The notes under the pieces were generated by a model. The model worked only from the letters and a program-made list of their open reading frames with translations. It made no database searches and had not been told where the DNA came from. A program made the position numbers and the translations under genes. A stretch of DNA of 60,869 nt, filler included, from Hausera hauseri (taxonomy: Eukaryota), in assembly GCA_046269625.1 (NCBI GenBank). It is 12 parts of 12 records of this genome, joined end to end, with 100 filler letters (N's around TTAATTAATTAA, not from the genome) between each part and the next. Parts side by side here need not be neighbours in the genome. Positions count along the whole stretch, not along the records: positions 53,841 to 60,869 come from JBJURY010042777.1; 11 more parts are not named here. One strand, written 5' to 3'. Shown here piece by piece: positions 2,051 to 60,869 of the stretch (position 1 is the first letter of the stretch; the number at the start of each line of letters is the position of its first letter).

Positions 2051-2360
2051 CTGTATAGCATACCTGATAACGGTAATACTAACTGGTCAAGTGAAGTCGA
2101 AGACGAAATACGGACGAATACCTGGCATTAAACAAATAGTGTTGAAGACATGAAAGCCTAAATATAGGCATGAGCTCGTGACGGATTTATCTCATCTAGA
2201 TCCCATAGATGAATATCATGGGGAATTATATAACGAGCAACTTGTAGTAAACCCTTCAGCTCCCCGATATGTGGTACATGCAGGAGTATACCCAATTTAT
2301 CAAGTACAACAGATGCGACAAAATTTTGAGAAAGACGTAAGACCTTATAAGCGTGACTAG

Positions 2361-4267
2361 ACGTGCAAAACTGATGATAAAAAAGGAGAACAAACGCCTA
2401 TATGGCGAGAAATAGAAATAGAGGTAAATGGATACCCTATCATGGCTCTATTAGATACTGGATCTACGACAACAATAATGGGAAGAAGTAAATTACCCAA
2501 AGAATTTAAAAGGAAGTTACAAAGACCGACTACTACATTAATAAATGTAGGAGCGTTCGGTACAGAAGAAATTAAGGTGGTTCTTGACGCAAAAATTAAA
2601 ATCGGCGAACAAACTTTGAAACAAACGATAAGAATAGCCGATAATTTGACTAATGAAATCCTGATTGGGTGTGACGTACTAAATCAATTATAAAACGCAT
2701 ATATAGACGTAAGAACCATTCAATTGAAGAAATTGATGAAGATCGATGCAGAGGAAAGGTCTCATTGACAAAAGATATCATGCCCCCACGATCAGAGATA
2801 GTTGTACCCGGAAAAATAGAAAGCCAAGTATTACCAGAAGTCGTTTACTTTGAGCCATTTGCACAAGTTGTGGAAAAATATGAAGTTTTAATCGCCCTCT
2901 TGTAGATAAAGTAAGGGAAGGAAAGATCCACCTGCGAATTTTTAATACGGCAAGTAAGGAAAGACGATTACGAAAGAATACAAGATTGTGAGAAGTAACG
3001 ACCAATGAGGGGATAATAAATCAAGAAACATGCTCGACAACGTCAGACATAGACAAGATAGAAAAGTTAATGATGGAAAAGTTAAAAAAGGAACCAGTCA
3101 AAGATAGAGTGAAAAATAGAATAGGCAATATTAATTGGCATGAGAAGTTACAGAATTGTGAAATCTTAACTGACGAAGAAAAGAGAATGCTAATCGAATT
3201 ATTACAAAAGAATAACGACCGATTCGCACAGAATGATTACGATTTTGGTACAATGAACGTAATACAACACTATTAAATTAAAAGAAGGACAGGATAACCC
3301 AATCAAGAGACCGTATCGATTAGCGTATGACAAAAAAACAAGAAGCACGAAAGATAAGAAATGAGGGAAAGCAAGATCATCCGACCAAGCTTTTCCCCCT
3401 GGACGGCTCCTGTAGTAATGGTTAAGAAGGATGGAACCATGAGATTTTGCATAAATTATCGAGCGTTAAATGAAATAACCGAAACGGATACATGCCCATT
3501 GCTAAGAATTGACGAAATATTAGACAGGCTTCACGGATCGACCATATTCTCAACCATAGATTTACAGAAAGGCTATTGGCAAGTGGAAGTGAAAGAAGAT
3601 AAACCAAAAACAGCCTTTTTAATCGGAGAAGGGTTTTGGGAATTTAATAGGATGCCATTCGGACTAAAGAATGGACCACCAACATTCCAGAGAGGCGCGG
3701 AACTCTTACTGTTAGACGCCCCACACGCCATGGTATATATTGATGATGTAATAATAGCATCACCAAATTTCCAACATCTAAAAGATTTGCAAGACCTCTT
3801 CGATAGATGTGAAATCATGGATCTGAAGATAAACCCGAAGAAATGTTCATTTGCTCAAACGGAAGTATATTTTCTTGGGCATAGAGTAGACAGATACGGC
3901 GTAAATCCTCAAGACAAACTATTGGAAAAAATAAGAGACTTCCCTAAACCAACCACAGTTAAAGAATTACGCCGATTTTTAGGTTTGGCGAATTACTATT
4001 GTAGATTTATAAAGGATTTCAGCAAAATCGCAAAACCTTTATATGAACTATTGCGTGAGGACCTGGATACAGTAGTTTGGACTACCGAGTGTCAAAAAGA
4101 GTTAGAGTATTTGAAAGAAAGATTGCTGACTGCTCCAATATTAATTTACCCCGATATGAATAAACCATTCATATTAGCTACAGATGCAAGCGACTACGGA
4201 GTTGGAGCAGTGTTATAACAAAAGGGTGAAGACGGTAAAGAGCATTCAGTAGCTTATGCTTCACGGA
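2361..4267 (+). mobile_element. pol: Ty3/Gypsy pol (aspartic protease, RT, start of RNase H), decayed, cut by contig end
   Basis: ALLDTGS protease motif (2442). RT motifs SPWTAPVVMVKK, RFCINYRALN, DLQKGYWQV, MPFGLKN, YIDD. RNase H PFILATDASDYGVGAVL and VAYASR. Confidence 0.95.
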
Positions 4268-4367: not shown

Positions 4368-6892
4368 TCAATAAACAGCATTTGATTTCTTTCACCAAAT
4401 CGAAAAAACAAATATTCAGTACCAATATGCCAATAACGACTTTCATGCCAGTTCATATGTGTATTGCACATGTGTAATACACAGCCTTCAGAATTGCCAC
4501 AATGCCATGAGGAGCTATTAAGGACACAAATTCAACAGAATTATTTATTATCTCTGCCCAGGATGTGAGGCTGTATGTGATGGAGAATACATACATTTTT
4601 ATGAAGATCACAAACATCATTTGACTGACTTCGCATCAAAGTCAAAGAAGATAATCTTTAATGAACATAAGCCAGTTGCATAGCCTGCAGTACAGCCAGA
4701 TGCAGGACTAAAATGCGCATCGGGCGCATCAGGCATAGCGGCTCCATCAAATAGTCAAAGACAGCGGCCAGTTGATGCTGCAACATTAAAGAAAAAATGC
4801 CGCAAATATGCCATTGATCAACTGGTCAAACAACCATCAAGGAGTTCCTGGAGTACACAGAGGAAGAAACAAAGGGGATTCTCCAGGACAACATAGCTGA
4901 GCTCAATGACATTAAGGCTAATATTAAACATGAGGCCACATACGTCAATGTTGATGGCGAAAAGTCCAAAGGGGCCTTCAAGACCAGAAATAGACCAATT
5001 TTTGAAGCCACCAATATAGTAGAATGGCTTCATGAAGAGCCTACAAAGCTGATCCGTGAAGCTGATGAGAGTCAGGATAAGAAGAGCAGATGGACTCTGG
5101 CAACCATCAAGAGATTGCTTGTGTATGTTCACAAGTACTCTCCAATGCGGGGCAGTTCCTATATTCAGCTTCCGGAATGGATCGCTAATAAAAAAGCATG
5201 CATCAATGTCCTTAATGATGACAAGTGTTTCATGTATGCCATTTTATGTAAACTCGTACGGGATCAAAAACACGCAGCAGATTGAATTTGTCTGTATAAT
5301 GATCTGAAGCACAACTATGACTTCCAATGTATTAAGTTCCCGCCATCCATAAATGAAGTTAAAAAATTCGGCCGAATCAACGTGTCCATCAATATCTTTG
5401 GGCTGGATGAGGAGGACAAATTCTATACCCTGCAGATATGTGATGGTGAAATGGAAGATCATAGGGATCTGCTCCTACTAGACGATGGAGAAAAGAAACA
5501 TTATGTTTGAATCAAGAACTTTGAGAGTCTAGTCAGGTCCCAAATTACAAAACATCATGGACAAATAGAAATATGTAAACGATGCTTGTCCCATTTCAAT
5601 GGTGATTCAGCAGTGGAGAAGCTTGCAGAGCACAAGATGTACTGCAAGAACAATTACTGTATCATGCCAGAATTTCCCAAGGAGGACTATATTGAATTCA
5701 AGGAGTTCGAGAAGAAGCTCAAGATCCCAATGGTTATCTATTGTGACTTTGAAGCTATTCTGCGTCCAGTTCAGACATTCATTCCCTGTCCTCAACATAG
5801 CAGCACAACGGCATACCAATATCATGAACTTTCATGGTGTTGTATGTATGCCAAAGGACTAGACAGTGAACCATTTCTATGCAGGGGTCCAAGTGCAGCA
5901 GCACATTTCATGAAAAGACTTGAAAACATGGCTCATAAGCTTGAAAACATGCATCAGCAGCATAAGGATACAATGAGCATGTCGTGGAAACAAGAAGATG
6001 AATGGGGCAAGGTAACAATATGTTACTTGTGCGACAAGTCCTTCACTATGGAGAATCATAAAGTCAGGGATCATTGCCATTTTACAGGTGCATATCGAGG
6101 AGTAGCATTCAACAACTGCAATCTTCGCTGCAAAACATGTACATATGTGCCTGTAGTGTTCCATAATCTCAGTAATTATGATTCCCATTTCATAGTCCAA
6201 GAATTAGGCAACATTGTAGGAAACATTGAGATGATCCCAAACAGTGAGGAGAAATACATCACATTTACGAAGCATGTTGGGAAAATCCGACTTTGCTTCA
6301 TAGACAGCTTTTGTTTCATGTCGTCTTCACTGGACAGTTTAGTGAAGAACCTCTCTGCAGAAGAACTCAAGGAGACGAAGCGATTCTTCCCCATTACCTT
6401 TGACCTAATCAAGAGGAAAGGCGTGTTTCCCTATGACTATATAACTTCATGGGAAACACTGGATGAGACCTCATTTCTGGCCAAGAAGGGCTTTTACAAT
6501 ATCATTTGTGATTGCGATATTAGTGATGCTGACTACCAGCATGCTCAGAATGTCTGGCATGCATTCCAATGCCAAACAGTAGGGGAATACAGTGATATTT
6601 ACCTCAAGACGGACGTGCTGCTGCTGACAGATGTCTTTGAGAGTTTCATGGGTGTTACAATGAAGAGCCATGCTTTGGATCCGGCTCATTACTTTACGGC
6701 TCCAGGGATGAGTTGGGCAGCAATCCTGCGCTATACTGGTATTAGGCTACAGATCATTAAGGATTATGATATGATCCTTATGATTGAAAGAGGCATTAGA
6801 GGGGGAATATGCCATGCCATTCACTGGTATATCGAGGCCAATAACAAGTATATGGCCGAGTACGACTCAACAAAGGAATCCTCATATATATA
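4368..6892 (+). pseudogene. polB: Polinton/Maverick protein-primed family B DNA polymerase with embedded endonuclease VII-like domain, broken just before motif A
   Basis: GSSYIQLPEWIANKKACINV..DKCFMYAI. EndoVII-like CYLC..VRDHCHFTGAYRG..NCNL. Exonuclease/pol motifs VVFHNLSNYDSHFI, FIDSF, KGVFPYDY, YLKTDVLLL, HYFTAPG, ERGIRGG, ANNKYM..YDSTKESSYI. Confidence 0.92.
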
Positions 6893-8200
6893 TGTTGTGT
6901 ACGTAGTAAATATGTAAAGTTTACATTTGAATTTTAAAATAAAAGAATCAAAATAGAAAATTTCAAAAATTCAAAGAAAATTTTAGTATTAAGCGCTAAA
7001 TCGTGTTTACTATTTTGAAAGAATTGCTATCAAAAGCAATTACAGAATAAGTTTATTTTTTTTAACAAAAATAATATGATTATTAAATTATGAAACATTT
7101 ATGATTGATGACCTTAAAAATGTACTAGTTACTAAAAAAAGTAACAGAAAGCCCCCAGGTTTAAAATTAACACCCCCAAGTGTCTGATAGACACCCATAT
7201 TAAATTTAAATTTAGTAACAAAGAGCCTACAAATATTAATAACGACCTACCATGTCTGATAAATGCCCACATAGAATAATAATGCTATATAAACTATAGA
7301 TGTAAAATGAAAAAACGAACATTAACTTCAGTCTAGCTAAAGGCTAACAATAAACCCAAAACGTTTCTAAACCTTAGAGTTTATTTGGGTTAAATTCGAT
7401 TTCATTTGAAGCTATTGTTGATTTGCTGTGAAATTGTGTTCAAGTAATACAATTCTATTAAGAAGAGTTCCTGTTTTCATTTGGAATCCAAAGGAAACGT
7501 AAATTTGTTTTTATTTTGTTGTTTCAATTCCATTTGAGTTTATTTATTATCTTGTTATAATTAACTAAACTTTTACCCACTAACTAATTGCGGTCGCAGC
7601 CGAAAGCACAGTAGGCTACGCGAATCACACAAAATTAAATAAAATCATACATTAGTAAGTAAATTTCTTCTTGTGGTATAAATACCCTTCTCTAAAATCC
7701 AATCTGATTAAAATCAAACAAGGGATTTAAAAAATAGGATTCACTAACACTTAATGAATATTAAAAAATCTCTCATAAGATTGAGAAACATAATAGAAAA
7801 CTATATTTGGATCATACAGGAACGACTGGAGTTCTTTATTTCTGTTAACTCACAAAGAGTAAAAACCCGAAAACGAATTCGAAAGTCATTTAATTTTGAT
7901 AAACACGAAAAATATTATTTAATTCCATTTTCAGTTTTAAACGAAACTTGCACAAGCTATTTTGCCTGTAAATCTCAAAGAGATTATAACCTATTACTTG
8001 AAAACGTTTTCGTTGAACCTAAATTTCCAGATTACTGGATATACGAATTCTTAGCCAAAAGCACCCTTGAACAAATCCGTTCATAAACACAATATAGAGT
8101 TATTAACTGTGATATAGACGCGCCTATTTGGATAGATTACGAATAGGCCACAGGGACAATAAACCGAAATTTTAAACTTGTAAAACATTTGAAATTTTGG
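6893..8200 (+). mobile_element. Probable LTR / 5' region of an LTR retrotransposon inserted into polB, containing a 110-aa unknown ORF (7754-8086)
   Basis: Starts TGTTGTG right after a (TA)n run. TATA-like TATATAAA near 7286 followed by TCAGT initiator near 7328. Abrupt switch to AT-rich sequence. Right end not defined. Confidence 0.4.
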
Positions 8201-14372: not shown

Positions 14373-17300
14373 TTTTATCGAATAGTTCGTTGGTGAAGTT
14401 TCTCCCTCGATCCGTTAGTATCTTATTGGGCGGTCCGTATCTACAAATAATTTTCCTTATCACGGCTTCGGCTAACGTCTCTGCTTTCTGATAATACAGC
14501 TCCACTAACTCCACGAAGTGAGTTAAACGATCGACGCATGTCAGTATATATCTGTTATTTCTGTGCCTCATGGGTAATGGTCCTACGATGTCCATCGACA
14601 TAGCTTGCATAGATCTGTCTGGTAGAGTTATTGACTTTAGCTCTGCTATATAATTCCGCATTTTCCTTTGCTTAGTCGTGAATACTTCGCAAGCGCTTAC
14701 GCAATTTTTCACATCAATATATATACTAGGCCAATAGTATTTGTTCAGCGTCTTATCTAGCATCTTCTTCCAGGACATGTGCCCAACTAAATATAAATCA
14801 TGTTCGGCCATTAAAACCTCGGTTCGTAAGCTTTTGGGTATAGCCACTAATTTCCTTCATTTTCGTTTGTAATACAGTAGTTTTTCATTATTTGGAGACA
14901 CAATATTTATGTCCATATCGTTGTAAATGTTTCTTTAACTGGTGTCCTTTTGGCATTACGTCTGCTTCAGCGTATTCAATGATTTGTTGGGTAACCCGAT
15001 CCTTCTTTTGCTCGCTGGAGATTCTAAGTGCTCCATCTAACGGTAACGTTCATTGTCGGTCTACTAACTCTTCGAGTTGGTTTTTCTTCATCGTCATGAT
15101 CGCACATGTTTTTGTTTTTAGCCTTGACAACGCATCTGCGTCAACATGCTTCGCACCTGGCTTATATTGAAATTCGACATTATACCTCGAGATCTCTTCG
15201 ATTCACCTATTCAACCTACAAGTAAGGTTATTTGCTCGTTCCTTTAAAGTTGTAACGGCCTTGTAATCGGTAACTATTATTACCCTCTGTCCATATACGT
15301 AGACGTTAAAATGCCTCAAGGCTTCTTTTACTGCTAACGTTTCTAATTCCGTCACTGAATAATTTTTCTCCGCTTTCTTCAGGGCGCGTCTTCCGTAAGC
15401 GATTGGGTGTTCTAGTTCTTCGTCCTCGCGTTTCTGTGCCAATTCATATCCGATACCTTCTTTACTTGCGTCTGTTTTAGTAATAAACGGTAAGCTAAAT
15501 TCAGGGTATCTCAGTACTGGTTCGGTAGTTAATATCTTCTTTATTTCGCCGAACGCCTTGTGTTCAATAACGGTCCATCTCCATTTCGTTCCCTTTTTTA
15601 ATAATCGGTATAATGGCACATTGATTTTTGAGTCATCCGGTACGTAAGTAGCATTATATCAACATAGGCCTAACCAATGTCTCAATTCTTTCTGGTCCTG
15701 GGGTTCCATGCAGTCCGAAATCTTGTTCAACAATAATTTGTCCGGCTTTGATACTCCCTATCCAACTATACGGCCAAGGATACGGCGTTCTGGGCCCATT
15801 TGCATTTTTTCGGATTTAGTTTCAACCCAGCCTGTTCTAATCTCATAAGGGTATCCTCAATGTATTTTAGATGATCCTTTTCGTCTTTTGATGCGATCAT
15901 TACGACGTCTAAATACGCAAATGCGTGTTCGAGTCCCATTAGCATTTTATTTATCATCCTGGTAAATATGGCTGGTCCAGTGGTAATTCCAAATGGCATA
16001 ACATTAAATTTGTACACTCCATCATGGGTCTTGAATGCTGTTTTATAACGATCCTCATATTCGATCTCTACTTGCCAATATCCGAATTGTAAGTCCAGAG
16101 TGGTAAACCATTTTGCGCCTGACAGCCTATCTTGAGCCTCTTTCACAGATGGTAGGGGAAAGGAATCCTTTATCATGAGAGTGTTTAATGCACTATAATC
16201 GATACAAAATCGATGTTTTGTGGTACCTTTCTTTTTGACCATAAGAATAGGTGAATACCAAAATCGGAAACTCGGCCTAATTATATCGGCCTTTAACATT
16301 CGTTCCACCTCCTTGATCATCTCAGGTCTTAGAGAATGTGGTGGTGAGTACCATTTTGGTATTTTCTCCTCTTCGAGACCAATCTCGTCATTGGAAACAG
16401 GCTTTTTCTTAAAGTGGTATAGTCAACCTTAATGCTTTTGCTCGGCAAATGTCTTCTTCGTCCTTCGCAATAATTGACATATATCGACATAGTAATTCAT
16501 AAAATTGACAATAGACTTTTGGTGAAAATTTAGTATCGAAGTGTGGTGGAAATTCAGCGTATTTATAAGCTTTTTCTTCAACCGTTATAGCTGATACTTT
16601 GCAAGTATGTCCCATTGTAGTGTTGGCATATACTTTCACTGAAGTTTGAGCATTGTTCACTTTTCTTACCGGTATCCGACCAGATACTACTCTGGTTAAT
16701 ATATTGCTCAATATTATATTCGGATTTAGTGTTTCTTTCGGCTGAAAGTACACTGGTAGATCGTCGTATTGACAGATTTGTGCAAATATTAACAATTCCG
16801 TTTTAGGTGGAATGTTTTCGTCGCCCGGAATCCATACCTCTCCGGTTTCTCTTTCTTTATTAATCTTGGTTCCTTTCATAGATCCTAGTTTGATTAGCGT
16901 CGAGGTGTTTAAGTCAACTGCGACGTTTGGTAGACGTCTTGGTATATCACACCCTAACACTACGTCATCCGTTAAGTGTTTCATTATCGAACATTCGTGT
17001 TGGAATGTTTGTCCCACTATTTTAAGATTACGATTCCATTTAAATTTTAGTCTGGATTCCTGTCCGAAAGCTCCTATACTTCGTGGTCGGTTGCTAATTG
17101 CAATCGTAGTTGTCTTCGTAATGTCTTTGGTATTGATCCGTCCTTAATAAATGATTTCTTTGATCCGGTGCGTATACTTCTCAATCGTCAATACTATTTT
17201 GGGCCAAAGGTCTACCTTCTTTTATCTAAGGTTTTCTAACGACGGAAATCTTGTACCCATTTAAACTAATTTCCGGTATTTTATTTTTGGCTACTTGTCT
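14373..17300 (-). mobile_element. pol: Ty3/Gypsy pol (PR-RT-RH-INT), decayed, same family as 53841-57182
   Basis: RT RFCIDY, LDLQFGYWQV, MPFGIT, YLD. RNase H KTDASKEGIG, PIAYGRR, NYSVTELE. Integrase H..GH..YYWP..C, MDIVGPLP, CVDRLT, TDRGRNFT. Confidence 0.95.
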
Positions 17301-17519
17301 TTATTCCTCACTAGGATATAATCCATTATTTACGCCGTTTTCATCATCTCGTTCCGGTGTATTGATTAGTGGTTCTCGGTTATTTCGATTATATGAAGAT
17401 TGCATTCGTAAATTATCCCAAATTGACGATTTAGTTTCTATATACCGTGACATGCTTGGGGAGTATATCAGCTTGTGGTCCTCTACCGATTGGTGGCATA
17501 ATTCAGAATTTTCCTTACT

Positions 17520-18659
17520 TCAGTACATTTTTCGTAATGCACCGTACTGCTTCGTCCCTTCATAAGGATCTTCATAACTGAAAGGTTTTCGATAGATTTC
17601 CGAGTTGTAAGAGCTAATGGATCTCTTATCGCCGTCCTTGTATTGTGGTGCCAAAGGGGGCGGCATCGGCAAGGGCGGCCTAAGTGCCTTGTGATTGCAT
17701 ATCTTGGAAACCGCGTCTCCTCCCTTAGGCTCATCATCATCTGAATCGTTTCTTTGAAATTTCGTATTTCCTTGTCTTATGAAGAATATAGGTTTTTTCT
17801 TTCGTTTCCGATTATAGTAACCAACGAGTTTCTCAGCGTCGTTTTTCCATTTGTTTTCTTCATAAGCTTTCAAAAATTTCCCAAAAGACGTTTTAATTGC
17901 TGTGAGAATTTTACATAAAAATCCGGTTAGGGTAAATATTTCACAGCCATTTATAACGGATTTAATTACTGCTTTTATGAGCTGTACTAAAAAATAGATA
18001 GCCAAAAAATCCAGATGCAGCTTGTCCGAATATTAAAAATCTTCCCCAGATTTTATATAGTATTTCTGTAGTGACCCTTTGGTAATGATTAACGCCAAGC
18101 AGAGATCCCTTTATAATCATCTCTATTCTTCAAGTAATCTTCTATTCTCACATTTTGTGTTTCCGACGCGAAAGTGGTTATTTCAGCCTCTGCCACTAAG
18201 AACACTTCATAATTAGTGGCGTACATTACCACGTTACATCGGGAAAGCATTTGATTCTTAATAAACTTTAAACCATGATCCTTGGAGATCAGTATCGTGG
18301 GTGTGGATTGTTCGGCCACGTCCTTCCTTGACCTGGCATTATTGTCAGTTGTGTCCACATATCTTTTTCCCGTGGTTTCATTAAAATTTATTTCTTTTAT
18401 TCTAATGAAGTTACAATAGTTCATAAATTGTGGAATCCAAATAACTGTCGAGTTTCGGAAGGTGCAGGCACCATCTTGGATGTGACACTTCCGGTTTTCA
18501 ATATAGGTCTTCGTAACACTATGGAACATCACCTTTTGGTTCCCCATTTCTGTTTTATAGAAATCGACCACTCCTATTCCTCCTTCTTTTCCTTTTCCCG
18601 TATCGTATTCACCCCCGTTATAGTATCCGTTGTGCATATCTAGTTTCACAACTGCTACT
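17520..18659 (-). pseudogene. Chuvirus-like glycoprotein (internally deleted) with TM and cytoplasmic tail, upstream of pol
   Basis: ENRKCHIQDGACTF..VIWIP..CNFI, SRCNVVMYATNY, IWGRFLIFGQAASGF, AIYFLVQLIKAVI; colinear with 57275-59450. Confidence 0.78.
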
Positions 18660-18759
18660 NNNNNNNNNNNNNNNNNNNNNNNNNNNNNNNNNNNNNNNNN
18701 NNNTTAATTAATTAANNNNNNNNNNNNNNNNNNNNNNNNNNNNNNNNNNNNNNNNNNNN

Positions 18760-19852
18760 TTCCTTGGGAATTATTAACAGTTTCTTTAAGGGCTTCTCGA
18801 TCAGAAACTTGACCTGATGCAGTTGGTTGTTGTTGAAGACGATGCTGCTGTTGCTGGATCTGAAAGTGATGATGAGGATGAAAGAAATGATGTATAGGGG
18901 TTGACGGATGCTGTTTTTGTTGTTGGCACTGTTGGTTTTGCTGCTGTTGAAGCTGATGATGCTGATGATGATTACGACGATCTGGTTGCTGTGGTGGAGA
19001 ATTAGATTCTGTTGCAATCGATGATTGAGCATTATTGACAGCTGATTGTTTATCACTTAAAACTTTGCTGACAGCATTATCAATAGCTTTGCTGACCGCA
19101 TGAGCTAATTCCGCTTTCAGAGCTACTGCAATTTTAGTCAGATCCGCTGGCGGAAGTTTTGACTGGTCTTCCGGTGCTGGCGCTGGCTCGCATCGCGCAT
19201 GGGAAGCTTTAGGTATATTTTTCAAAATGGCAGCCATTGGATCCAGACTAGGCCTAACACTAAATGTGTTCTGTGTGAAAAAGTTATCCCTATAAAGCTG
19301 CGGATCAAATCCATTGTGAAATGGTGGAATAAAATCCTTATCCCCAACATTATAATACATGCCATTACGAAACAAAGCATTTGTTCCAAAGAAACCGTTC
19401 ACGTTGTGTATATCGCCTAAAATATCCTCATTATTAACAGCCTCTTCGTCGTTTTTATCATTAAAACTATGGTTGTGCTTGTACTTAATATTGCTGCATT
19501 CATTTCTATGTTCTGTCCTGCTGTTGTCGTGTTGCTGAGGCTGTGTCTGCTTTCTCTTTTGTTTCTTGCTGCCTTCACTGCTTGGCGAGACTCTGTTAAT
19601 CATTTCATACCCGTTGTCAACCTGCAGTGGTGATCTCATGCCGAGAATATGCCCAACCCTGGGTCGTTTGGAAACACCACACAGGGGACTATTTGGTTTA
19701 CTTCCCTCACAGTCAGTCAGATCGTCATCACAACTATCGTCTTCAACAATCCCTCTTCCTTCTTCGTCCTCTACTTCTCTTTATTCCGACTCATCTTCAC
19801 ACGACACAACACCTACATCAAAATCTACCAATTTTTTCCCCAACCTTAATCT
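18760..19852 (-). pseudogene. pros: prospero/Prox-family N-terminal coding exon (one in-frame TAA at 19781-19783), cut by contig end
   Basis: SKRPRVGHILGMRSP resembles the Prox KRARVENI..M motif. KRKQTQPQQHD resembles KRK..PQQH. ALKAELAHAVSKAIDNAVSKV resembles LKQEL..AMSQVVDTVVKV. Q/H-rich tract; candidate acceptor TTTGCAG ending at 19853. Confidence 0.7.
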
Positions 19853-20169
19853 CTGCAAACAAACACATCGCATACAAACACAACATGCAGAATCATATTC
19901 AGCAAGTATAGCAGGGAAAATCAGCGAAGGTTTCAACGTCTTATTCACACTAAGCTCAACTAACACAAACACTTTTCGTTTTGCGATTTTTTCTCTCTAT
20001 CATTTTACCCTTCATAGTTTTAACTTTGCCACGGGGGCTGATGTGCTGCCCGAGTCGACGTCGCCCTCTGGCCCATTAGGTTGGGCACGGCGGGCTTCCG
20101 CTGCCGGCGCTTCGGGCACATAGGCAGGCCCAGATTTTCAGTCTTGAAAACGACAATGGATGCAATTAC

Positions 20170-20690
20170 CATGGACGATGTTCAATCCGAAATCATTAGA
20201 AATGGAATGGCATATTTTGAATCGAAATGTTTCATCAATCGAGACTTAGCAGCACGAAATATCTTAATAAATGAAAACCACGTGTGTAAAATAGCAGATT
20301 TTCGTTTAACACGAATCGCTCGTGGATCAGAAGATACATATAATACTCGGCAACGTGCAAAATTTCCAATTAAACAGACTGCTCGAGAGGCTGAGTTAAT
20401 GGGAAAATTCACAATAAAATCAGACGTTTGGTCGTACGGCATTGTATTGTACAAGATGATAACTCATGGTCAGACCTCGTTCCCTGCAATGAACAACACT
20501 CAGATCCTACACGAGGTAGAGAAAGGCTATAAAATGGCACGACCACAAACCTGTCCGCAGCAACTCTATCAAATCATGTTAGTGTTGGGAACAATTGCCA
20601 GAAAAGCGACCAACATTCAAAAGCCTCAGTCAGTTTTTCGAAGATTCGACCAGTATTAAAGATGGATATAGACCGACTAATCTAACATAA
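20170..20690 (+). pseudogene. Src/Frk-family tyrosine kinase C-lobe, intronless and inactivated
   Basis: GMAYFES..NRDLAARNIL..KIADFRL..AKFPIKQTARE..FTIKSDVWSYG. A frameshifted tail CWEQLPEKRPTF..DGYRPTNLT* carries the C-terminal Tyr. HRD>NRD, DFG>DFR, WTAPE>QTARE. Confidence 0.88.
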
Positions 20691-47624: not shown

Positions 47625-48886
47625 TTAATAATTTCTCAGTTTGATCCAAATTTGTCTTTTCTGTTGTCTCAAGACTATTCTGTGTACCACACAGTAAGCT
47701 ACATCAAGGTCACCTTCATTGCACTTTAAACTACACTGCACTAAACTACATTCTTCTGGTGACCTCACTGACAAGTCTGAAGAATGACCATGGGCTTTAC
47801 ACAATGCTTCAAATCTTTCTTCATCACCACAACTAATCAGTGTTTCTTCTTGCAGTCTTGCTATCTCTTCAGCTTCTGATGCAGCATTCTGAAATAAGAC
47901 TACAGAGAAATCGTCTGTTTTTAACAAATGTGATGTTCTGTTCTCAAGTGTTGCTTCAGTATCCATTAGGTTCCAGTTTTCAGAATTGCCTCTAAATGTG
48001 TGACCAGCAAACGCATATTGCATGCAGTAGATATCATCTAATGACTTTGAAAGCCTGCCAGGAAATCTTCTTTTCTGCTTTCTTCTATGTGGAGATGCAG
48101 ACTCACTAACTGCCAAAATAGCATCTATATGTCTTTCAGGGAATCGACCACGTGGACGAGATAAAAGCAAAGGAAATGGATAAATATTGTTGTCTGAAAC
48201 TCTTTGTTCTCTTGCAGGTTTCTGGTAATGTACAATATTTTCCTTTCTGTCTATGGCACTGAGAATGATTTCCTTTTCACCATCTAAGTCCTCAGTCTCC
48301 AGAGTTGATAGGCTATCATCATTGAATGGTGAATCTTTTGCATTACTTGTTGACTTTGCAGTCTGTTGATTAGTGTCTAGCAATAGCTTTTTCTTGTCCA
48401 TTCTGTTTGAATATGAATATGGTAACATTGTGTTGTCCAATGTTCTTCCTACACGACCTGAAGTGACATGATGTGGCAATCCACTGTGAGACGTATGCAT
48501 CAAAATGTGGCTAACTCTTGGAGAAAGGTTTGGAGATTCAGGTTCTGTGCAGTAGTCAGAACTGATGGCAGAGTCACTTAAACTTCTGACTCTGTGCTGA
48601 AACTCATGTATTCTCAGTTTCTTTGTGCCAGATTTATTAACCATTTCTTCTGCACTGTCACCAATATCTGATGTTTCCATTTCATCTAGAATATCCACTT
48701 TAACTGTCAAATCATCTCTAACTTGACCAGTTTTCTGAGACGCTTGCAGAGAGGGATTTTCTGAATATTTCACCTGTGAATTAAATACATTATCTGATCC
48801 AGGTGATACAATGTTTTCACTTGAGTCACTTTGTCTTGGGGACTGTTGAGGTGTTGTATACATTGAAGTGTCAGATCCACTGGATC
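47625..48886 (-). CDS. Intact large (probably terminal) exon of an unidentified host gene, Ser/Asp/Glu-rich
   Basis: 412+ codons without a stop; acceptor TTTTGAATTTACAG ending at 48887; CpG-poor coding composition; RVRSLSD and LSKSLDD phospho-like motifs. Confidence 0.7.
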
Positions 48887-49329
48887 CTGTAAATTCAAAA
48901 GTGTACAGACCACAAGNNNNNNNNNNNNNNNNNNNNNNNNNNNNNNNNNNNNNNNNNNNNTTAATTAATTAANNNNNNNNNNNNNNNNNNNNNNNNNNNN
49001 NNNNNNNNNNNNNNNNTGGAGAGTCATTTATTATATGACAAGAGGTGTTGTGACTTGAGTATAATTTGCTGTATGATATGGCTGTGGAGTGTTGGCTACT
49101 GTAATATAAAAGTAGATACAATTGAATATTACCTCCAGCAAAATTGGGTTGTCGTGGATGTCGCGGAGGATACTCTTTGGCCAGAGAGATTCCCATCTAT
49201 CAGTGTGGTATCACCAGTGGGTAGTATAGTGACACAAAAATTATCTCGATTGAGAATCCTACCATACATTTGATAGGTGACAACTGTCACTCATCATTTG
49301 TTTGATGAACTGTTCGTTTGGTGGGAAAA

Positions 49330-53840: not shown

Positions 53841-56800
53841 ATCTTCTGGATTTGCGTAACACGGAGTCATTCCTAAGTCCGTAGGTAATATTGCTTCGCG
53901 TCCATACATCATAAAAATGACGTAAGTCCTGTGGCGGAATGTGGAATTGTATTGATAGTAAATTGTGTTCTTTCTAAAAATTCGTCCCAATCCTTCTGAT
54001 CCTTCGCGACTCCGGTACATAAGACCCATAGAACTGTTGCGTTCATACGTTTGACCATTCCGTTACACTAACGGTGATATGCGGTAGTAGTTAATCGTTC
54101 CATTTCGAAAATCTTAGTAATTTTATCAAATAACTCGCTCGTAAAGTTCCTTCCTCTATCGATTAAGAGTTGATCGGGAGGGTCCGTATCTGCAAATAAC
54201 TTTCCTTATTACCGCATCTGCTAAAGTTTCGGCCTTTTGATCGATTAGTGCTATTAATTCGACGAAATGCGTTAGGCGATCCACGCATGTCAAAATATAT
54301 TTGTTGTTTTTATGAGTTGTAGGTAAGGGCCGTACTATATCCATAGACATAGCTTACATAGGTTTATCTGGTACATTGATCGGTTTTAATTCTGTTTTAT
54401 GGTTTTTCACCTTCTTTTGGTGCACAGACTTCGCAAGCGTTCACCCAGTTTTTCGCGTCGATATAGACGCTTGGCCAGTAATACTTATTCAATTTTCTTT
54501 CTAATGTTTTCTTCCTAGACATATGCCCAGCTAAATGTGAATCGTGTTCGGCCATCAACACTTCTGTTGATAAACCCTTTGGAATATCTACCAGTTTACG
54601 TCCCTTTCGTTCGTAATATAAAATATTGCCTGGGTTCTATGCATAGTATTTTTGCCCGTGTCTTTGTAAGTGTTTCTTTAGCTGGTGTCCTTTCGGTATT
54701 TCATCTCGCTCGGAAAATCTGATTATTTGCTGAGTAACTTTATCCTTGGCTTCTTCTGAAGAAATCTTGATTGTTTTATTCAGTGTTAAGGTCCATTGTC
54801 GTTCCATTAATTCTTCGAGTTGGGCTTTCTTCATAGTCGTAATAGTACTTGTCTTTGTCTTAAGTATTGATAACGCATCTGCGTCAATATTTTTACTTCC
54901 GGGTTTATATTGAAATTCGATATTGTATCGGGAGATTTCTTCGATCCACCTATTTAGTCTACATGTTGGGTTACTGGCTCGTCCATTTAACGTCGTAACA
55001 GCCTTGTGATCGGTAACTATAATAATTTTCTGCCCGTAGACATAGACATTAAAATGCCTTAAAGTTTCTTACACAACTAATGTCTCTAGTTCCGTAACTG
55101 AATAGTTTTTCTCGGCTTTCTTGAACGATTGTCTTCCATATGCGATTGAATGTTCCAATTCTTCGTCTTCTCGTTTCTGAACCAATTCGTAGCCAATCCC
55201 TTCTATACTTGCGTCTGCTTTAATTATAACTGGTAAATTAAAATCAGGATATCTTAGCATTGGTTCACATGTTAAAATTTTCTTCATTTCAGCGAACGTC
55301 TTTTGTTCAATATCGGTCCATTTCCATTTGATTCCCTTTTTTAATAAACGATATAATGGTGCATTAATTTTCGAATTGTCTGGCACATAAGTGGCGTATT
55401 ATCCACATAAGCCTAAGCAATGTATTAGTTCCTTCTGATTTTGATGGCCCATACAATCGAATATGTTGCTCAGTAAGGATTTATCTGGTTTCGATCCTCC
55501 TTCTCCCACTATATGTACGAGATAAGATACAGCATTCTGTGTCCATTTACATTTCTTGGGGTTTAGTTTCAATCCTGCCTGTTCTAACCGCATAAGAGTC
55601 TTTTAGGTGTTCTTCTATTTTCAATGCTATTATTATATCGTCTAAATAGGCGAACGTGTGATCGAGTCCCATTAACATTTTATTCATCATTCTGTTGAAG
55701 ATAGCTGGGTCGGTTGTGATACCGAACGGCATGACGTTAAATTCGTAAACTCCGTTATGTGTCTTAAACACTGTTTTGTAACGATAGTCTTCTTCACTTT
55801 CTACTTGCCAGTATCCGGATTGTAAGTCCAGTGTGGTATACCATTTTGCTCCTAATAATATATCTAATGCTTCTTTTACTGACGGTAATGGGAATGAATC
55901 CTTTATCATAAGAGTGTTCAGAGCTCTATAATCTATACAGAATCGATGTTTAGTAATGCCTTTCTTTTTAACCATAAGTATTGGTGAGTACCAAGATCAG
56001 TAACTTGGTCATATTATGTCGGCCTTTAACATGCGTTCTACATCTTTAGTTATTTCTGGCCTCAATGAATGAGGCGGAGGGTACCACTAAGGCATCTTTT
56101 GCTTTTCCAAATCAGTTTCATCGTTGGAGCCAGGTTTCATTTTTAATGGGATTGTTAACCTTAGAGCCTTTGCTCTACCTATATCTTCTTCATTTTGGGC
56201 GATGATCGACTTGTATTTGCATAGTAGTTCATAAAACTGACAATAGACTTCTGGTGAAAATTTAGTTTCAATATGAGGTGCAAATTTGGCACATGTATGG
56301 TTTTTCTTCGATTGTTATTGCCGATACCTTATAAGAATGGTCCAATGTAGTATTGTCATATAACCTTACTGGGGTTGGCGCGTTATTCACTAATCTGATT
56401 AGTATTAGACCTGTTACCACTCTTGTAAAAATGTTACTAAGTATGATATTTGGATTAACTTCTTCTTGTGGCTCAAAGTATATTGGTTGGTCGTCCTCCT
56501 CCCGGATTTGAGAATAAATTAACATTTAGGTTCTGGGCGGAATATTTTCATCGACGGGAATCCATACTTCTCCTAGTTTCCTTTCTTTCATTGTTTTAAT
56601 CCCTTTTACTGGTCCGAGTTCAAGTAGTTTTCCAGTATGCAAATTTAATGCAATATTTGGCAACTGTTTCAATATATCGCAATCTAATACTACATCATCG
56701 GTTGACTGATCCATTATGGCAGATTCATGTTAAAGGATTTGACCCATTAGATGAACTAGTGGATTCCACTTAAATTTGGGCTTAGATTCTTGCCCGAAGG

Positions 56801-57182
56801 CTTCTATGCTACTCGGATCTGATGACGATGCTGGCTGTAATTGTTTTTGTAGAGTCGGTGGTATTGATTCTAACTTAATAAATGATTTTTTCGATACTGT
56901 GTCGATTAAAGCATAAACTTTCCAATCATGAATGGCAACTTTTGTAAAGGGTGTTCCTTCCATAACTGTTCCATAACAACTTGATACGTCCTTCAGTCGT
57001 TTACTTGACAAAATATTATGTCCGTTTATTGTTATCTCTGGTGGTGAAATGATATTTTTGGTCAAATGTTTCAATTGCTCGTTTGGATATAAATTGTTGC
57101 CTACTATGCTATTCTCATTGTTTTTAATTACTGATTCTTTTGTTATCGGATTTTGTAGCAATTTCACTCCTGGTATTTCCAA
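53841..57182 (-). mobile_element. pol: Ty3/Gypsy pol (PR-RT-RH-INT), decayed
   Basis: PR VYALIDTVS. RT RFCIDYRALN, LDLQSGYWQV, YLDDII. RNase H KADASIEGIG, NYSVTELE. INT HDSHLAGH..YYWP..CEVC, MDIVRPLP, TTAYH..NGMV. Confidence 0.95.
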
Positions 57183-57274
57183 ACTGTCGATCTTGACTCT
57201 ATATTACAAGCGATTCTTGGTGAATACAATATTCTATGGTCATCTTCCGTTCGTTTTTGATTAGTGATCTGCAT

Positions 57275-59450
57275 TTACTTTAATACTCCGTATTGTTTTG
57301 TTCCTTCATAAGAGTCCTCATAGCTAAAGGCTTTTCTATGGTTTTCCGATTTGTATGATATTATCCATGGCCTGTCGCAGTCTTCATATATTGGACCTGT
57401 CGGTGGGATAATGGGCAATGGCGACTTGATTACTGAATACAGTTTGTGTCTATTTTGTCTGAGGATCACTTCTCCTCCATTAGGCTCATCATCATCAAAG
57501 TTATTTCTTCGTGTTGTTGATTTCCTCTTTGCATTTTGATAGAAATGTGGATCTTGTTTGTCGCTTATAACTATGGTAGCCAACATGGCGTTCAACGTCA
57601 TTTTTCCATCGATTTTCTTCATAGGCTTTGAGCATTTTTCCGAAAGGTGTAATAATTGCTGTTAAAATCTTTCAACAAAATCCTGTTAGCGTGAATATTT
57701 CATCCGTTTATAATCACTTGGATTACTGCCTTCACTAATTGTATCAAGAAATAAATTGCCAAAAATCCGGATGCGGCTTGTCCAAAAATTAAAAATCTTC
57801 CCCAAATTTGTAGAGTATTTCCGTGGTTACTCGTTGATAATGGTTTACATCGAGCAAGGATTCGCACTTAGCCTGATAACGGGTATCGTCCACTACTGAA
57901 GCCATGGCTTGGTTTAATTTGTGTGTTCACTGCTGCGGAAAAGCGAGAAATTGCATACAGGCTTCGATCTCTTTTGGTCTGTGTATGCCCTTTTGAGATG
58001 TATCTTGGAACTTGTCGTCAGTAATCACTTTTGCTAAATTGGTTACGGTTAGCTTTTTAGGAACGGCAGTGACACCTCCATTCGGCAAACTAACCCAATC
58101 CGTTTCGCTACGTCTAAACATTGTTTTGCCTAAACTTGCTTTGCAATCCTTTAGGATTATAGGCTGTGTTACATTATCCAGCAACATCTTAGTGAGGGGC
58201 ATGGCTAATCGTGGAGTATTTCGATAGATTACAGGAAGTTCTTGTATACATCGTTTTTCGTCAACATTAATTGGTACATCTCTTTTTTCACACCCATATG
58301 TCAATAGAACTTCACCAGAGACTCGATCAAAGATTCCTTCTCTCATGGGAATAATTGGTGAGGCTAACTCAGGGTTTGCGTAAATAAGAGCTAATTTTGT
58401 CTTCATAATTTTCATGTCCAATTTGTAATCGTTTGTTATCATTTAGTGGTATAGTTCGGCTATCCCGACTTGTGATTTGTAATAGAAATAATCATCTCGG
58501 TTTTTCAGATAGTCTTCAATCCGAATGTCCTGCGTTTCTAGATTGTAGGCTTTCACATTTATCTCTGTTTCTGCAACGAAAAACGCTTCATAATTAGTGG
58601 TGAACATCACTACCTAACAACGTGAAATCATTTCTTTTTTAATAAATTTCAGTCCATGTTGGTCAGAGATTAGTATCGTAGGTGTATGATGTTCTAATAC
58701 GTCTTCACGTATCCTTGAACTGACGTCATATTTATTTATGTATCGTTTCCCCGTAGTTTCATTAAATTTCAGTTACTTAATTTTAATAAAATTACAGCCT
58801 CTTCCAGAGGGTGGTCCCCATATTACAACGGAACTTTTGAATGCACAGGTTCCATCCTGTATATGACATTTTCGATTCTCGGTATATAGCTTAGTGACGC
58901 TATAGAACATCACTTTCTGTACTCGCATTTCCGATTCGTAAAAGTCTACGACTACTACGTTTGCTTCTAATCCTTTTCCGGTGTCGTATTTTGCTTCACT
59001 ACATTGCCCATTACGCATGTCTAGCCTTCCGACTACTACCTTACATGCAGTAATTATCTTTTCGGGATGCATCTCTAATTCCAGATTATCCCATTTTAAT
59101 CTTCCGGTTTCTCGGGCCTGCTTACAGTGTTGTCTTTCCAAGTTCATTGGAATTGGAGGGGTCGTTGGTTTGATTATGGAAGAATATTCGTGCATTAGTC
59201 CACAGTGGAAAATGCTACGAGATCATCTCAGCATATACTTCGTGCCTTCCAAAGATATCAATTCTTGTTGTTAATATAGGAAATAACTCTTCTCCTTCGT
59301 TTCCAATTTGTGCGGTCGGGCATCTTCACATGCCACTAAGTCCATTAGTGAATATTTTTGTCCAAGCTTAAATTTATCTCATTCGTATACAGTAACCGCA
59401 CCTATCTGTTCTATTAGCACCATTATAGTGAGTAAGCTCATTAACCAATT
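57275..59450 (-). pseudogene. Full-length chuvirus-like envelope glycoprotein (signal peptide, Cys-rich ectodomain, TM, Pro-rich tail) upstream of pol
   Basis: Signal WLMSLLTIMVLIEQIGA|VTVYE*D..YSLMDLVAC, then FFHCGLMHEYSSI, HCKQARETG, NGQCSEAKYDTG..NVVV, KCHIQDGTC..VIWG..CNF, LALIYANPE, RVSGEVLLTYGC, CIQELPV, KGI..LAFPQQ, WGRFLIFGQAASGFLAIYFLI. Confidence 0.8.
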
Positions 59451-60869
59451 GGATTCATTCTTTCGGTTGTTATTATCCGTTGTCGAAAAGTTCCATAAGA
59501 TATCTTCGAGTCTATTGTTGCTACTGGTCCTTTTGTCTTCTTCCTTATCAAATAATCTTGGCCAATTTACTTCACAAGGAAGCTTCCTAGCCGCTTTCCG
59601 CACCAGGCTTGTAGCTCAATTGAATTCACTATCTCGATTTGGATTTGTTTTAATTGCTAAGTACAGTAATACTTTCCTTAGCTCTTCCGTCGTATTCTCC
59701 ATCATGATTTTCTCAACTATTGCGTCGTCAGTTAGGTTACTTTTTGATAGCTTAAAACGTGAACTTCTTATTGTCCTAGCTGCGTTAAATATCGCCTTCT
59801 CGTTATCATCTAATGTGTCTCCTCGAAGGCTCAAATAATTCACGATTCGTATTAAATTTTTCATTAATTCATTTAATTCTTCATTATCCGTACTGAAGTT
59901 GGGAATTGACATTTGTCTCAATTCTCTAATCAGCTCCCCGTTGTAGTCGATGTCTTCTCGGATTTTCCTGAGCCTACCTACCGGCCGTCTTTGTTTCGGG
60001 GCAGTTGACAATGTCATGCTCAATGGTACTAAATTTTTTTCGCATTGTTCCTTGTCTTTGTCTGTTTGCAAATACTCGAAATACATTGCGGCGTCTCGAA
60101 CTCCCATGATTTGTCCTACACATTGTTCTGTATTTGCTTTACGTGTGGCTTCTTCTTTAGTCTGTTCGTTGGTTATCGTTACCACTATTCTGTTTGTTTC
60201 GTCGGGTATAATTCCGGCGTCTATTAACTGTGCTAAATCATCTAGCATTCTATCTCTGAAACAGAATCTATAATTTGACTCGTTCGTTCCACCATTATTC
60301 CTTAACCATTCTTTCACGTCCCTTGCGTAGGAATATGTGGTCAACTCACATTTTTTTTCGTCCATCCATTCAGATGATATTTTTATTTTCATTGTTGTTT
60401 CAGGTTTAGCCCTTAAGATTTTAGCATACTTCTTTATCAAAAGTAAATTGTGTTCTCACTAGCTAATTTAATCAAGGTCGGAATAAGCTGTCTTAGTTTA
60501 TTTTTAGTAATGTTTACGTTAATTAGCTCAATTAAATCCTTTTCGGTTAGCGCTGAATCCAGGAGCATCTCCACATTAAACTTCTTGTTCTGCGGGTACG
60601 CTTCTATTTCATTTAGGTGTACTGGAGTTATAGGATTTTCGGCCGTTATCGCCTGTAAATATGCATCCCATTCCGATTCGTTCCCAATATCTGGAAGTCT
60701 ATAGTCTACTAAGGTTGCGTTTGTTCTTTGCACATTTTCTCGAATTTCTTTCAATCTTGGTTGTATTTCTTTCATCTGCGTAGTTCGGAAACCTATTCCG
60801 TTTCCACAGGCATACTGAATCATTTTCAGTAATTCGCCTAATTCATTAGAATTGATAAATCCCTTTTGG
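59451..60869 (-). pseudogene. Unknown N-terminal region (gag position) of the G-carrying Gypsy element, more than 450 codons
   Basis: ORFs 60437-60823 and 59616-60440 overlap by 4 nt (likely one frameshift). 59616-60440 continues in frame past a single TGA into 59379-59603. No CCHC seen. Confidence 0.6.

What the first reader, a model, noticed from the sequence alone, without database searches (positions are those of the whole stretch)
59379..60823. Glycoprotein appears fused in frame to the upstream ORF (internal signal peptide)
Seen: ORF 60440-59616 ends NRDSEFN-TGA and the same frame continues ATSLVRKAARK... straight into the hydrophobic signal WLMSLLTIMVLIEQIGA and VTVYE-TGA-DKFKLGQKYSL. 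The second TGA sits where a conserved Cys is expected, and there is no intergenic gap. Inference: G was translated inside a polyprotein and released by signal peptidase, as in flavi- or alphavirus structural polyproteins, rather than from a spliced env mRNA.
Basis: partly seen in the sequence, partly recalled or inferred. Interest (0 to 1): 0.7.

Follow-up and report, generated by a model that had tools for sequence, protein, structure and literature searches.

The report
Envelope inside one retroelement polyprotein
This is a broken copy of a multi-copy, retrovirus-like jumping gene whose membrane-fusion protein is encoded in the middle of one very long reading frame, between capsid and enzymes, and is likely cut out by the cell's signal peptidase, a layout already described for the Burro elements of flatworms.

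Summary
Observation confirmed, inference right, layout already published. The stop at 59616-18 is decay: 26 of 29 other copies have a sense codon there, and it is one of 20 in-frame stops in this copy. Across 32 aligned copy pieces one phase carries no shared stop from the gag start to beyond integrase, with dN/dS 0.10-0.24 throughout, 0.16 in the linker. Unbroken natural frames in other copies cross every junction. G has no conserved ATG or splice acceptor ahead of its signal. The element is a roughly 16-kb Ty3/gypsy unit with a polyprotein of about 4,050 aa: Gag, cargo with a ubiquitin-like domain, signal, gB-type fusion protein, TM, PR-RT-RH-IN, a second signal, a second membrane protein; then a separate RING-like ORF. 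Env in frame between gag and pol is described for planarian Burro (PMC6431247), the gene order more widely (PMC13524379). I did not find the second membrane protein in print, but this scan reported both features before in other genomes. Signal-peptidase release and lack of splicing remain inferred; no RNA data.

The parts
60437..60869 (-). Piece of the cargo region of the polyprotein (between Gag and the ubiquitin-like domain); the window and its contig end here. Its stop at 60439-60437 results from a 16-base deletion near 60444 private to this copy
   Evidence: natural frames crossing this point in L189, L190, L192, L199
60195..60392 (-). Ubiquitin-like domain (weak but consistent)
   Evidence: all 12 PDB sequence hits at E<=10 are ubiquitin-like domains on profile positions 17-89, best E 0.012; Pfam ubiquitin E 0.01 in 3 of 30 rows; collinear with the sister family, z 4.9, 0 of 1000 shuffles
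59964..59990 (-). AT-hook-like basic motif
   Evidence: PF02178 in 10 of 30 rows, best E 0.11; weak
59556..59948 (-). Helical domain that spans the first TGA; sits where the sister family and Burro have a Bcl-2-like domain; homology not established
   Evidence: hhalign 204 columns, 27% identity, E 0.019, probability 2%; domain alone z 1.9, 59 of 1000 shuffles; no Bcl-2 Pfam hit in 30 rows
59616..59618 (-). First TGA: decay stop, not a gene end
   Evidence: sense in 26 of 29 other copies, stop in 3
59448..59615 (-). Coding linker between the stop and the signal, under purifying selection in this frame
   Evidence: dN/dS 0.16 over 55 codons, 1.3 and 1.0 in the shifted frames
59397..59447 (-). 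Internal signal sequence 1 (about 12 hydrophobic residues, basic residues before, small residue last); cleavage predicted between 59397 and 59396
   Evidence: highest 11-codon hydropathy of the whole frame averaged over copies, 2.77; small residue at -1 in 91% of 23 copies; cleavage itself inferred
59379..59381 (-). Second TGA: decay stop
   Evidence: sense in 25 of 29 other copies, stop in 3, gap in 1
57792..59396 (-). gB/chuvirus-type (class III by family) fusion glycoprotein ectodomain, broken by 7 stops in this copy
   Evidence: PF24664 E 1.4e-29; E 2.4e-68 in a natural frame of another copy; stop list
57735..57777 (-). Transmembrane anchor of G; a weaker hydrophobic stretch follows near 57698-57683
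   Evidence: 19-codon hydropathy 2.10 and 1.49
56600..57730 (-). Cytosolic tail of G running in frame into the aspartic protease (approximate limits; frameshifted in this copy)
   Evidence: natural frames L191, L194, L197, L189 hold PF24664 and RVP in one frame, RVP best E 2.8e-7; no protease Pfam hit in the window copy
55550..55996 (-). Reverse transcriptase
   Evidence: PF00078 E 6.5e-25
54925..55398 (-). RNase H
   Evidence: PF17919 E 2.7e-22, PF17917
53841..54636 (-). Integrase (zinc finger and core); the contig ends at 53841, before the second signal
   Evidence: PF17921 E 4.4e-16, PF00665 E 3.2e-6; contig limits

Best explanation
This is a decayed copy of a Ty3/gypsy LTR element whose gag, cargo, envelope and pol genes form one reading frame, and whose gB-type envelope protein was likely threaded into the ER by an internal signal and cut free at its N-terminus by host signal peptidase. 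Shown: one continuous frame of about 4,050 codons in the order Gag (capsid, CCHC) - cargo (ubiquitin-like, AT-hook-like, helical) - signal 1 - gB ectodomain - TM - PR-RT-RH-IN - signal 2 - second luminal domain - TM - short tail, followed by a separate RING-like ORF. Inferred: the four hydrophobic segments alternate, so Gag-cargo and Pol stay in the cytosol while both ectodomains face the lumen; signal peptidase makes both luminal N-termini; the element's own protease, tethered behind G, would release Gag, cargo and the enzymes on the cytosolic side; Gag and Pol start out membrane-anchored next to G, which would favour budding of an enveloped particle and cell-to-cell spread.
For: Stop not shared. 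Zero majority stops in one phase across about 3,620 aligned codons versus roughly 1-10 per 50 codons in the other phases; capsid-to-knuckle spacing a multiple of three in 9 of 11 and 8 of 8 copies, so no programmed frameshift. dN/dS 0.10-0.24 in all 13 regions, 0.8-2.5 in shifted frames. Natural stop-free frames: 1,340, 1,264 and 912 aa across cargo-linker-G, 1,386 aa across capsid-cargo, 935 and 860 aa across G-TM-protease, 1,192 aa across RT-IN-second protein. No conserved start or acceptor for G. The three strongest hydrophobic windows of the aligned frame are signal 1, signal 2 and the G anchor; the second anchor is seen in natural frames. Distant natural proteins P0126 (2,627 aa) and P0125 (2,226 aa) have the same signal-gB-TM-PR-RT-IN-signal-domain-TM layout without a break. 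A sister family in this genome reads capsid-CCHC-Bcl-2-like-signal-gB in one 1,385-aa natural frame.
Against: No cleavage-site predictor, RNA or protein data: cleavage and topology rest on hydropathy and pattern only. Signal 1 has a short hydrophobic core about 1,600 residues into the chain, and whether such a signal is recognised was not tested. A weaker second hydrophobic stretch follows the G anchor; if it crossed the membrane the topology of Pol would fail. One frame implies equal amounts of Gag, Env and Pol, which most retroviruses avoid (general knowledge), so extra spliced messages may exist; acceptor-like sites shared by most copies occur at 60257 and 59894 among 31 such sites in 9,037 positions. 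No single contig spans the whole unit, so continuity is assembled from overlapping evidence.
Confidence: 0.8

Rival explanations
1. The frame is continuous, but most G is made from a spliced subgenomic message that skips gag and cargo, the full-length polyprotein serving mainly to make Gag and Pol.
For: Solves the stoichiometry problem; spliced env messages are the rule in retroviruses and Drosophila gypsy (recalled). Shared acceptor-like sites exist 450-800 bases upstream of the signal. An earlier scan note on another genome reports a spliced message in a related element (e1-8573470, unchecked).
Against: No shared acceptor-like site in 59800-59440; synonymous divergence in the linker is high (dS 0.83), showing no extra nucleotide constraint; a splice at the upstream sites would still leave the signal internal.
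Confidence: 0.12
2. The hydrophobic segment is an uncleaved signal-anchor, so G stays attached at both ends (two membrane anchors) and is freed from the cargo by the element's protease on the cytosolic side.
For: PMC13524379 (passage read) says some gB-type ectodomains are flanked by two transmembrane domains instead of signal plus TM.
Against: The hydrophobic core is about 12 residues followed by polar residues and a conserved small residue, the pattern of a cleaved signal; the sister family, P0125 and P0126 show the same pattern three to five residues before a conserved aromatic-Asp-Cys motif.
Confidence: 0.06
3. The TGA is a real, leaky stop (programmed readthrough) or a true gene end, with G as a separate gene.
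For: Three other copies carry a stop at the same codon.
Against: 26 of 29 do not; the three are not the window's nearest relatives (78-81% identity, while copies at 86-89% are sense); the codon lies inside a conserved coding stretch and 19 other stops litter this copy.
Confidence: 0.01

Closest known systems
Burro / GYPSM1 giant gypsy-like LTR elements of planarians (as described in PMC6431247, section 7 read in full; the primary papers by Grohme et al. 2018 and Jurka 2007 were not seen)
   Same: One huge ORF with Gag first, a ubiquitin/SUMO-like domain, then env resembling mononegavirus fusion glycoproteins in frame between gag and pol, PR-RT-RH-IN after it, accessory ORFs.
   Different: Unit about 16 kb, not over 30 kb; polyprotein about 4,050 aa, not 4,873-5,140; one CCHC knuckle seen, not two or three; Bcl-2 likeness not established here; no MATH, BIR or ankyrin hits; a second signal plus membrane protein after integrase, which that section does not mention.
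GAG-ENV-POL errantiviruses with HSV/gB-type ENV of Platyhelminthes, Bryozoa and Nematoda (PMC13524379: abstract, section 14 whole, first part of section 5, searched passages, parts of supplements 1 and 2 seen)
   Same: Ty3/gypsy Pol, gB/chuvirus-type env, env ahead of pol. By eye the G sequence resembles the six Schmidtea class C1a rows of supplement 2 more than the bryozoan rows (no alignment was run).
   Different: The passages read speak of gene order and do not state a single polyprotein, a cargo region or a second membrane protein. Their elements are intact; this family is decayed (72-90% identity between copies).
Nematode endogenous retroviruses (NERV, Sacco et al. 2022)
   Same: Recalled from memory as a continuous gag-env-pro-pol ORF with an RNA-virus glycoprotein; only the reference entry and a one-line mention in PMC13524379 were seen (paper not held).
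   Different: Recalled as nematode-restricted and shorter; kinship not tested.
Atlas virus and related nematode belpaoviruses (PMC9094657, searched passages seen)
   Same: Envelope proteins inside a single 2,828-residue polyprotein, bounded by predicted TM helices and cleavage sites.
   Different: Bel/Pao, not Ty3/gypsy; order Gag-Pol-Env; phlebovirus-like class II fusion protein.

Membership tests
Ty3/gypsy LTR element (Metaviridae) | Pol order PR-RT-RH-IN with gypsy-type domains | tested here: met
Ty3/gypsy LTR element (Metaviridae) | Gag with capsid and CCHC knuckle | tested here: met
   Retrotrans_gag E 0.0034 and zf-CCHC E 7.1e-6 in natural frame L199; outside the window
Ty3/gypsy LTR element (Metaviridae) | Long terminal repeats, primer-binding site, target duplication | tested here: inconclusive
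   The same TATA-plus-palindrome segment lies 270-450 bases after the 3' ORF in 10 contigs and 740-840 bases before the capsid in 7 contigs, and two contigs show head-to-tail units sharing it; no contig holds both ends of one copy; PBS and target duplication not examined
GAG-ENV-POL errantivirus with HSV/gB-type ENV | gB/chuvirus-type envelope | tested here: met
   PF24664; no PDB sequence hit; fold of G not predicted
GAG-ENV-POL errantivirus with HSV/gB-type ENV | Order gag, env, pol | tested here: met
GAG-ENV-POL errantivirus with HSV/gB-type ENV | Placement of RT within one of the published GAG-ENV-POL clades | not testable with these tools
Burro / GYPSM1 | Env in frame between gag and pol in one polyprotein | tested here: met
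Burro / GYPSM1 | Ubiquitin/SUMO-like domain upstream of env | tested here: met
   weak individually, consistent across 12 of 12 PDB hits and the sister family
Burro / GYPSM1 | BCL2-like domain just before env | tested here: inconclusive
   no Pfam Bcl-2 hit in 30 rows; collinear with the sister family's Bcl-2-like domain but not significant alone; AlphaFold model unusable (pLDDT 38)
Burro / GYPSM1 | dUTPase-like domain between PR and RT | tested here: inconclusive
   a spacer of about 230 aa is present in L174, no dUTPase Pfam hit at E<=0.5; the published call used HHpred
Burro / GYPSM1 | Giant size (over 30 kb) and MATH, BIR, ankyrin cargo | tested here: not met
   unit about 16 kb by overlap of copies; no such Pfam hits in the frames scanned. 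Not filed as Burro; called Burro-like
Burro / GYPSM1 | Planarian host and sequence kinship to Burro RT | not testable with these tools
   host unnamed; no Burro sequence held

The most novel reading that the evidence does not exclude
These elements are a clade of enveloped gypsy viruses with two surface proteins made from one four-pass polyprotein: a gB-type fusogen ahead of Pol and, behind integrase, a fast-changing fibronectin-III/Ig-type membrane protein captured from host receptors that serves as the attachment or receptor-mimic partner of the fusogen, like the gB-plus-attachment-protein pairs of herpesviruses; in this family its tail ends in a conserved Tyr-Asp-x-Ile/Leu-Thr sorting-type motif instead of the Thr-x-Val ends seen in relatives.
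Probability: 0.3. Interest if true: 0.65.

Novelty: new member of a known kind. Interest (0 to 1): 0.3.

Why it matters
For the finding as posed, little: env in frame between gag and pol was reported in 2019 for planarian Burro elements and the gene order in 2022-2026 for several phyla. What it adds is a clean demonstration, from copy comparison, that the in-frame signal is under selection and has no start of its own, and a compact (about 16 kb) member with a different cargo. The more interesting part lies just outside the window: a second signal and membrane protein behind integrase, present in this family and in at least eight database proteins, which would make these retroelements two-glycoprotein viruses and give a testable idea of how they move between cells of invertebrates.

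Tried and rejected
Read at first as a real gene boundary: the stop at 60439-60437 looked conserved, but it is in frame only because of this copy's 16-base deletion. An apparent phase switch inside gag is an alignment artefact at a length-variable stretch. Homologue searches for the cargo found almost nothing: 0 of 2,798 candidates among longer proteins and one 150-aa fragment among 1.84 billion representatives. AlphaFold models of the cargo-linker (pLDDT 38) and of the second membrane protein (pLDDT 40) are unusable; Foldseek gave no match at E<=0.001, though the weak rows for the second protein are mostly fibronectin-III and cytokine-receptor chains, as are the sub-threshold ESM Atlas hits (0.79); the Atlas gave nothing for the helical domain. 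No Pfam family for the second protein and no alignment of it to P0126. Related-locus scans of metagenome and prokaryote-genome contigs found none. No RNA holder listed; the one run laid is contigs of unknown kind, possibly the source, and says nothing on splicing. First blast of 5' against 3' ends found no repeat because the 3' pieces were cut too early. The 3'-region stop-phase table was too poorly aligned to use; natural frames were used instead. The RT tree is the quick one only, 53 of 127 rows kept (family, env-bearing rows and the 45 best-scoring others), with a long-branch warning. Paper searches found no description of the second membrane protein; subscription papers, figures and unseen supplements may hold one.

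Full report
What is there. The window is a chain of contigs joined by N runs; positions 53841-60869 are one contig of an 869-Mb, very fragmented genome. On its minus strand lie, in order, two frames without a Pfam family, a gB/chuvirus-type fusion glycoprotein (PF24664), reverse transcriptase, RNase H and integrase. Read with X at stops it matches PF24664 from the hydrophobic stretch onwards, E 1.4e-29.

Are the stops real? A DNA search of the own genome gave 41 matches at 77-89% identity (40 of 2,290 candidates scored); the 30 best were returned as loci. At the first TGA, 26 of the 29 other copies have a sense codon and 3 a stop; at the second, 25 are sense, 3 stop, 1 gapped. The three sharing the first stop are 78-81% identical to the window, while the closer copies (86-89%) are sense, so the match is more likely recurrence than common descent. 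This copy has 20 in-frame stops in 2,335 aligned codons and 11 indels, 10 of them frameshifting; the other pieces carry 3-27 stops each. The stop is ordinary decay.

How long is the frame? I aligned 32 natural pieces of copies and counted, per aligned codon, the share of copies with a stop. One phase has no majority stop from the gag start to beyond integrase, about 3,620 codons, while the other two usually have 1-10 per 50 codons. A seeming phase change within gag is an artefact: the spacing across it is a multiple of three in 9 of 11 and 8 of 8 copies. Pooled pairwise dN/dS is 0.10-0.24 in all 13 regions, 0.16 both in the upstream ORF and in the linker behind the stop, against 0.8-2.5 in the shifted frames. 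Independently of any alignment, other copies hold unbroken frames across each junction: 1,340, 1,264 and 912 aa from cargo through linker into G; 1,386 aa from capsid through cargo; 935 and 860 aa from G through its anchor into the protease; 430 aa from protease to RT; 1,192 aa from RT through integrase into a further protein (32 contigs examined, chosen for long frames or for distant matches). A protein search with the ORF-plus-linker piece matched 115 of 115 scored places, most over the full 352 residues in one frame.

Does G have its own start? The ATG inside the signal at 59441 occurs in 1 of 23 copies; shared in-frame Met codons lie at 59705, upstream of the stop, and at 59423-59420, too late to leave a signal. 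No acceptor-like site is shared in 59800-59440 (at most 1 of 24 copies), whereas 31 such sites occur among 9,037 positions elsewhere, the nearest at 59894. This argues against a G-only gene but cannot exclude splicing; no RNA run was listed.

Anatomy beyond the window. Upstream lie a capsid and one CCHC knuckle, then about 1,200 residues of cargo with almost no public relatives. Within it, a ubiquitin-like domain is supported by 12 of 12 weak PDB hits. Behind integrase the frame continues through a second signal-like segment into a 400-aa domain with 10 cysteines, a transmembrane segment and a tail of about 30 residues; a stop follows, then a separate ORF of about 775 aa ending in a RING-like finger, E 0.002. 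A TATA-plus-palindrome segment stands at both ends of the unit. Summed from overlaps, the polyprotein is about 4,050 aa and the unit about 16 kb; no contig spans it whole. The second protein has only sub-threshold hints of a fibronectin-III or cytokine-receptor fold from a poor model.

Relatives. A sister family in this genome reads capsid, CCHC, Bcl-2-like domain (E 1.6e-5), signal and gB in one natural 1,385-aa frame; its pre-signal region is collinear with ours (z 5.4 overall, 0 of 1000 shuffles; helical domain alone z 1.9, 59 of 1000). Database proteins P0126 (2,627 aa) and P0125 (2,226 aa, with an Ig domain at E 9e-5 after integrase) show signal-gB-TM-PR-RT-RH-IN-signal-domain-TM unbroken. 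In a quick RT tree of 53 rows, all 8 env-in-frame rows fall in a 14-row branch (SH-aLRT 99, long-branch warning); five of the six other rows there, and P0033, also carry two hydrophobic segments after integrase. Several end in Thr-x-Val or similar; five natural frames of this element's wider family end in Tyr-Asp-x-Ile/Leu-Thr instead.

Mechanism. Shown: a single frame, selection on the linker, no own start, four hydrophobic segments in alternating positions. Inferred: signal 1 opens translocation about 1,600 residues into the chain, signal peptidase cuts after the small residue (present in 91% of copies), the G anchor returns the chain to the cytosol so that Pol folds there, signal 2 repeats this for the second protein, and the element's protease trims the cytosolic parts. 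This resembles flavivirus polyprotein processing (general knowledge). Against it: a weaker hydrophobic stretch after the G anchor, equal stoichiometry of all products, and no direct data.

What is known. [quoted passage not shown] PMC13524379 (parts listed under Closest known systems) reports GAG-ENV-POL elements with gB-type env in nematodes, bryozoans and flatworms; by eye our G resembles its Schmidtea rows. The element fails the size and cargo features of Burro and is therefore Burro-like, not Burro. Searches and the sections read gave no account of the second membrane protein; figures, subscription papers and unseen supplements may. This scan's earlier notes on other genomes report both the internal envelope and the second membrane protein; I had reached both readings before that call, and those notes are not independent support.

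Verdict. Real, correctly read, and a new but decayed member of a known kind: interest 0.3. The open and more interesting question is the role of the second membrane protein.

Noticed in passing
L109:1720-2754 (-), L113:894-2090 (-), L174:1641-5216 (-); just beyond window position 53841: Second signal and about 400-aa membrane protein in frame behind integrase; tail ends in a conserved Tyr-Asp-x-Ile/Leu-Thr in five natural frames, across families only 35-45% identical to the query copy.
   Followed up: partly
L148:196-2565 (+): Separate 3' ORF of about 775 aa after the polyprotein stop, ending in a RING-like finger (E 0.002); the rest has no Pfam family.
   Followed up: partly
L218:264-4418 (+), L219; window 951-4263 (+): Sister family with the Burro domain order (capsid, CCHC, ubiquitin-like, Bcl-2-like, signal, gB, protease); a piece of it lies at the start of this window at 71-76% DNA identity.
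   Followed up: partly
window 14373-18609 (-): A further decayed piece related to the element of the finding (66-74% DNA identity), G followed by Pol.
   Followed up: partly
L080 and L138: Head-to-tail units sharing one terminal segment with a TATA box and a short palindrome, sometimes doubled; the sequence upstream of the TATA box varies strongly between copies.
   Followed up: partly
P0019: A relative with a signal-like segment at 48 and a TM at 204 ahead of the protease, i.e. only a short luminal piece where gB would stand.
   Followed up: no
P0126: This polyprotein is labelled as from a Flavobacteriaceae bin by its source; it is almost certainly animal DNA in that bin (inference).
   Followed up: no
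L206:1-540: A strong Bcl-2 family hit (E 2.9e-31) that by eye looks like a vertebrate Bcl-xL-type gene; the assembly may include DNA of a host or prey.
   Followed up: no
window 5511-6917 (+): 468-aa frame with an endonuclease VII hit (E 2.8e-5), possibly part of another mobile element.
   Followed up: no
window 20042-20659 (+): Degenerate-looking tyrosine-kinase fragment (PF07714 E 1e-41) without introns over 205 codons, possibly a retrocopy or element cargo.
   Followed up: no
window 47625-48968 (-) and 18704-19780 (-): Frames of 447 and 358 aa without any Pfam family.
   Followed up: no
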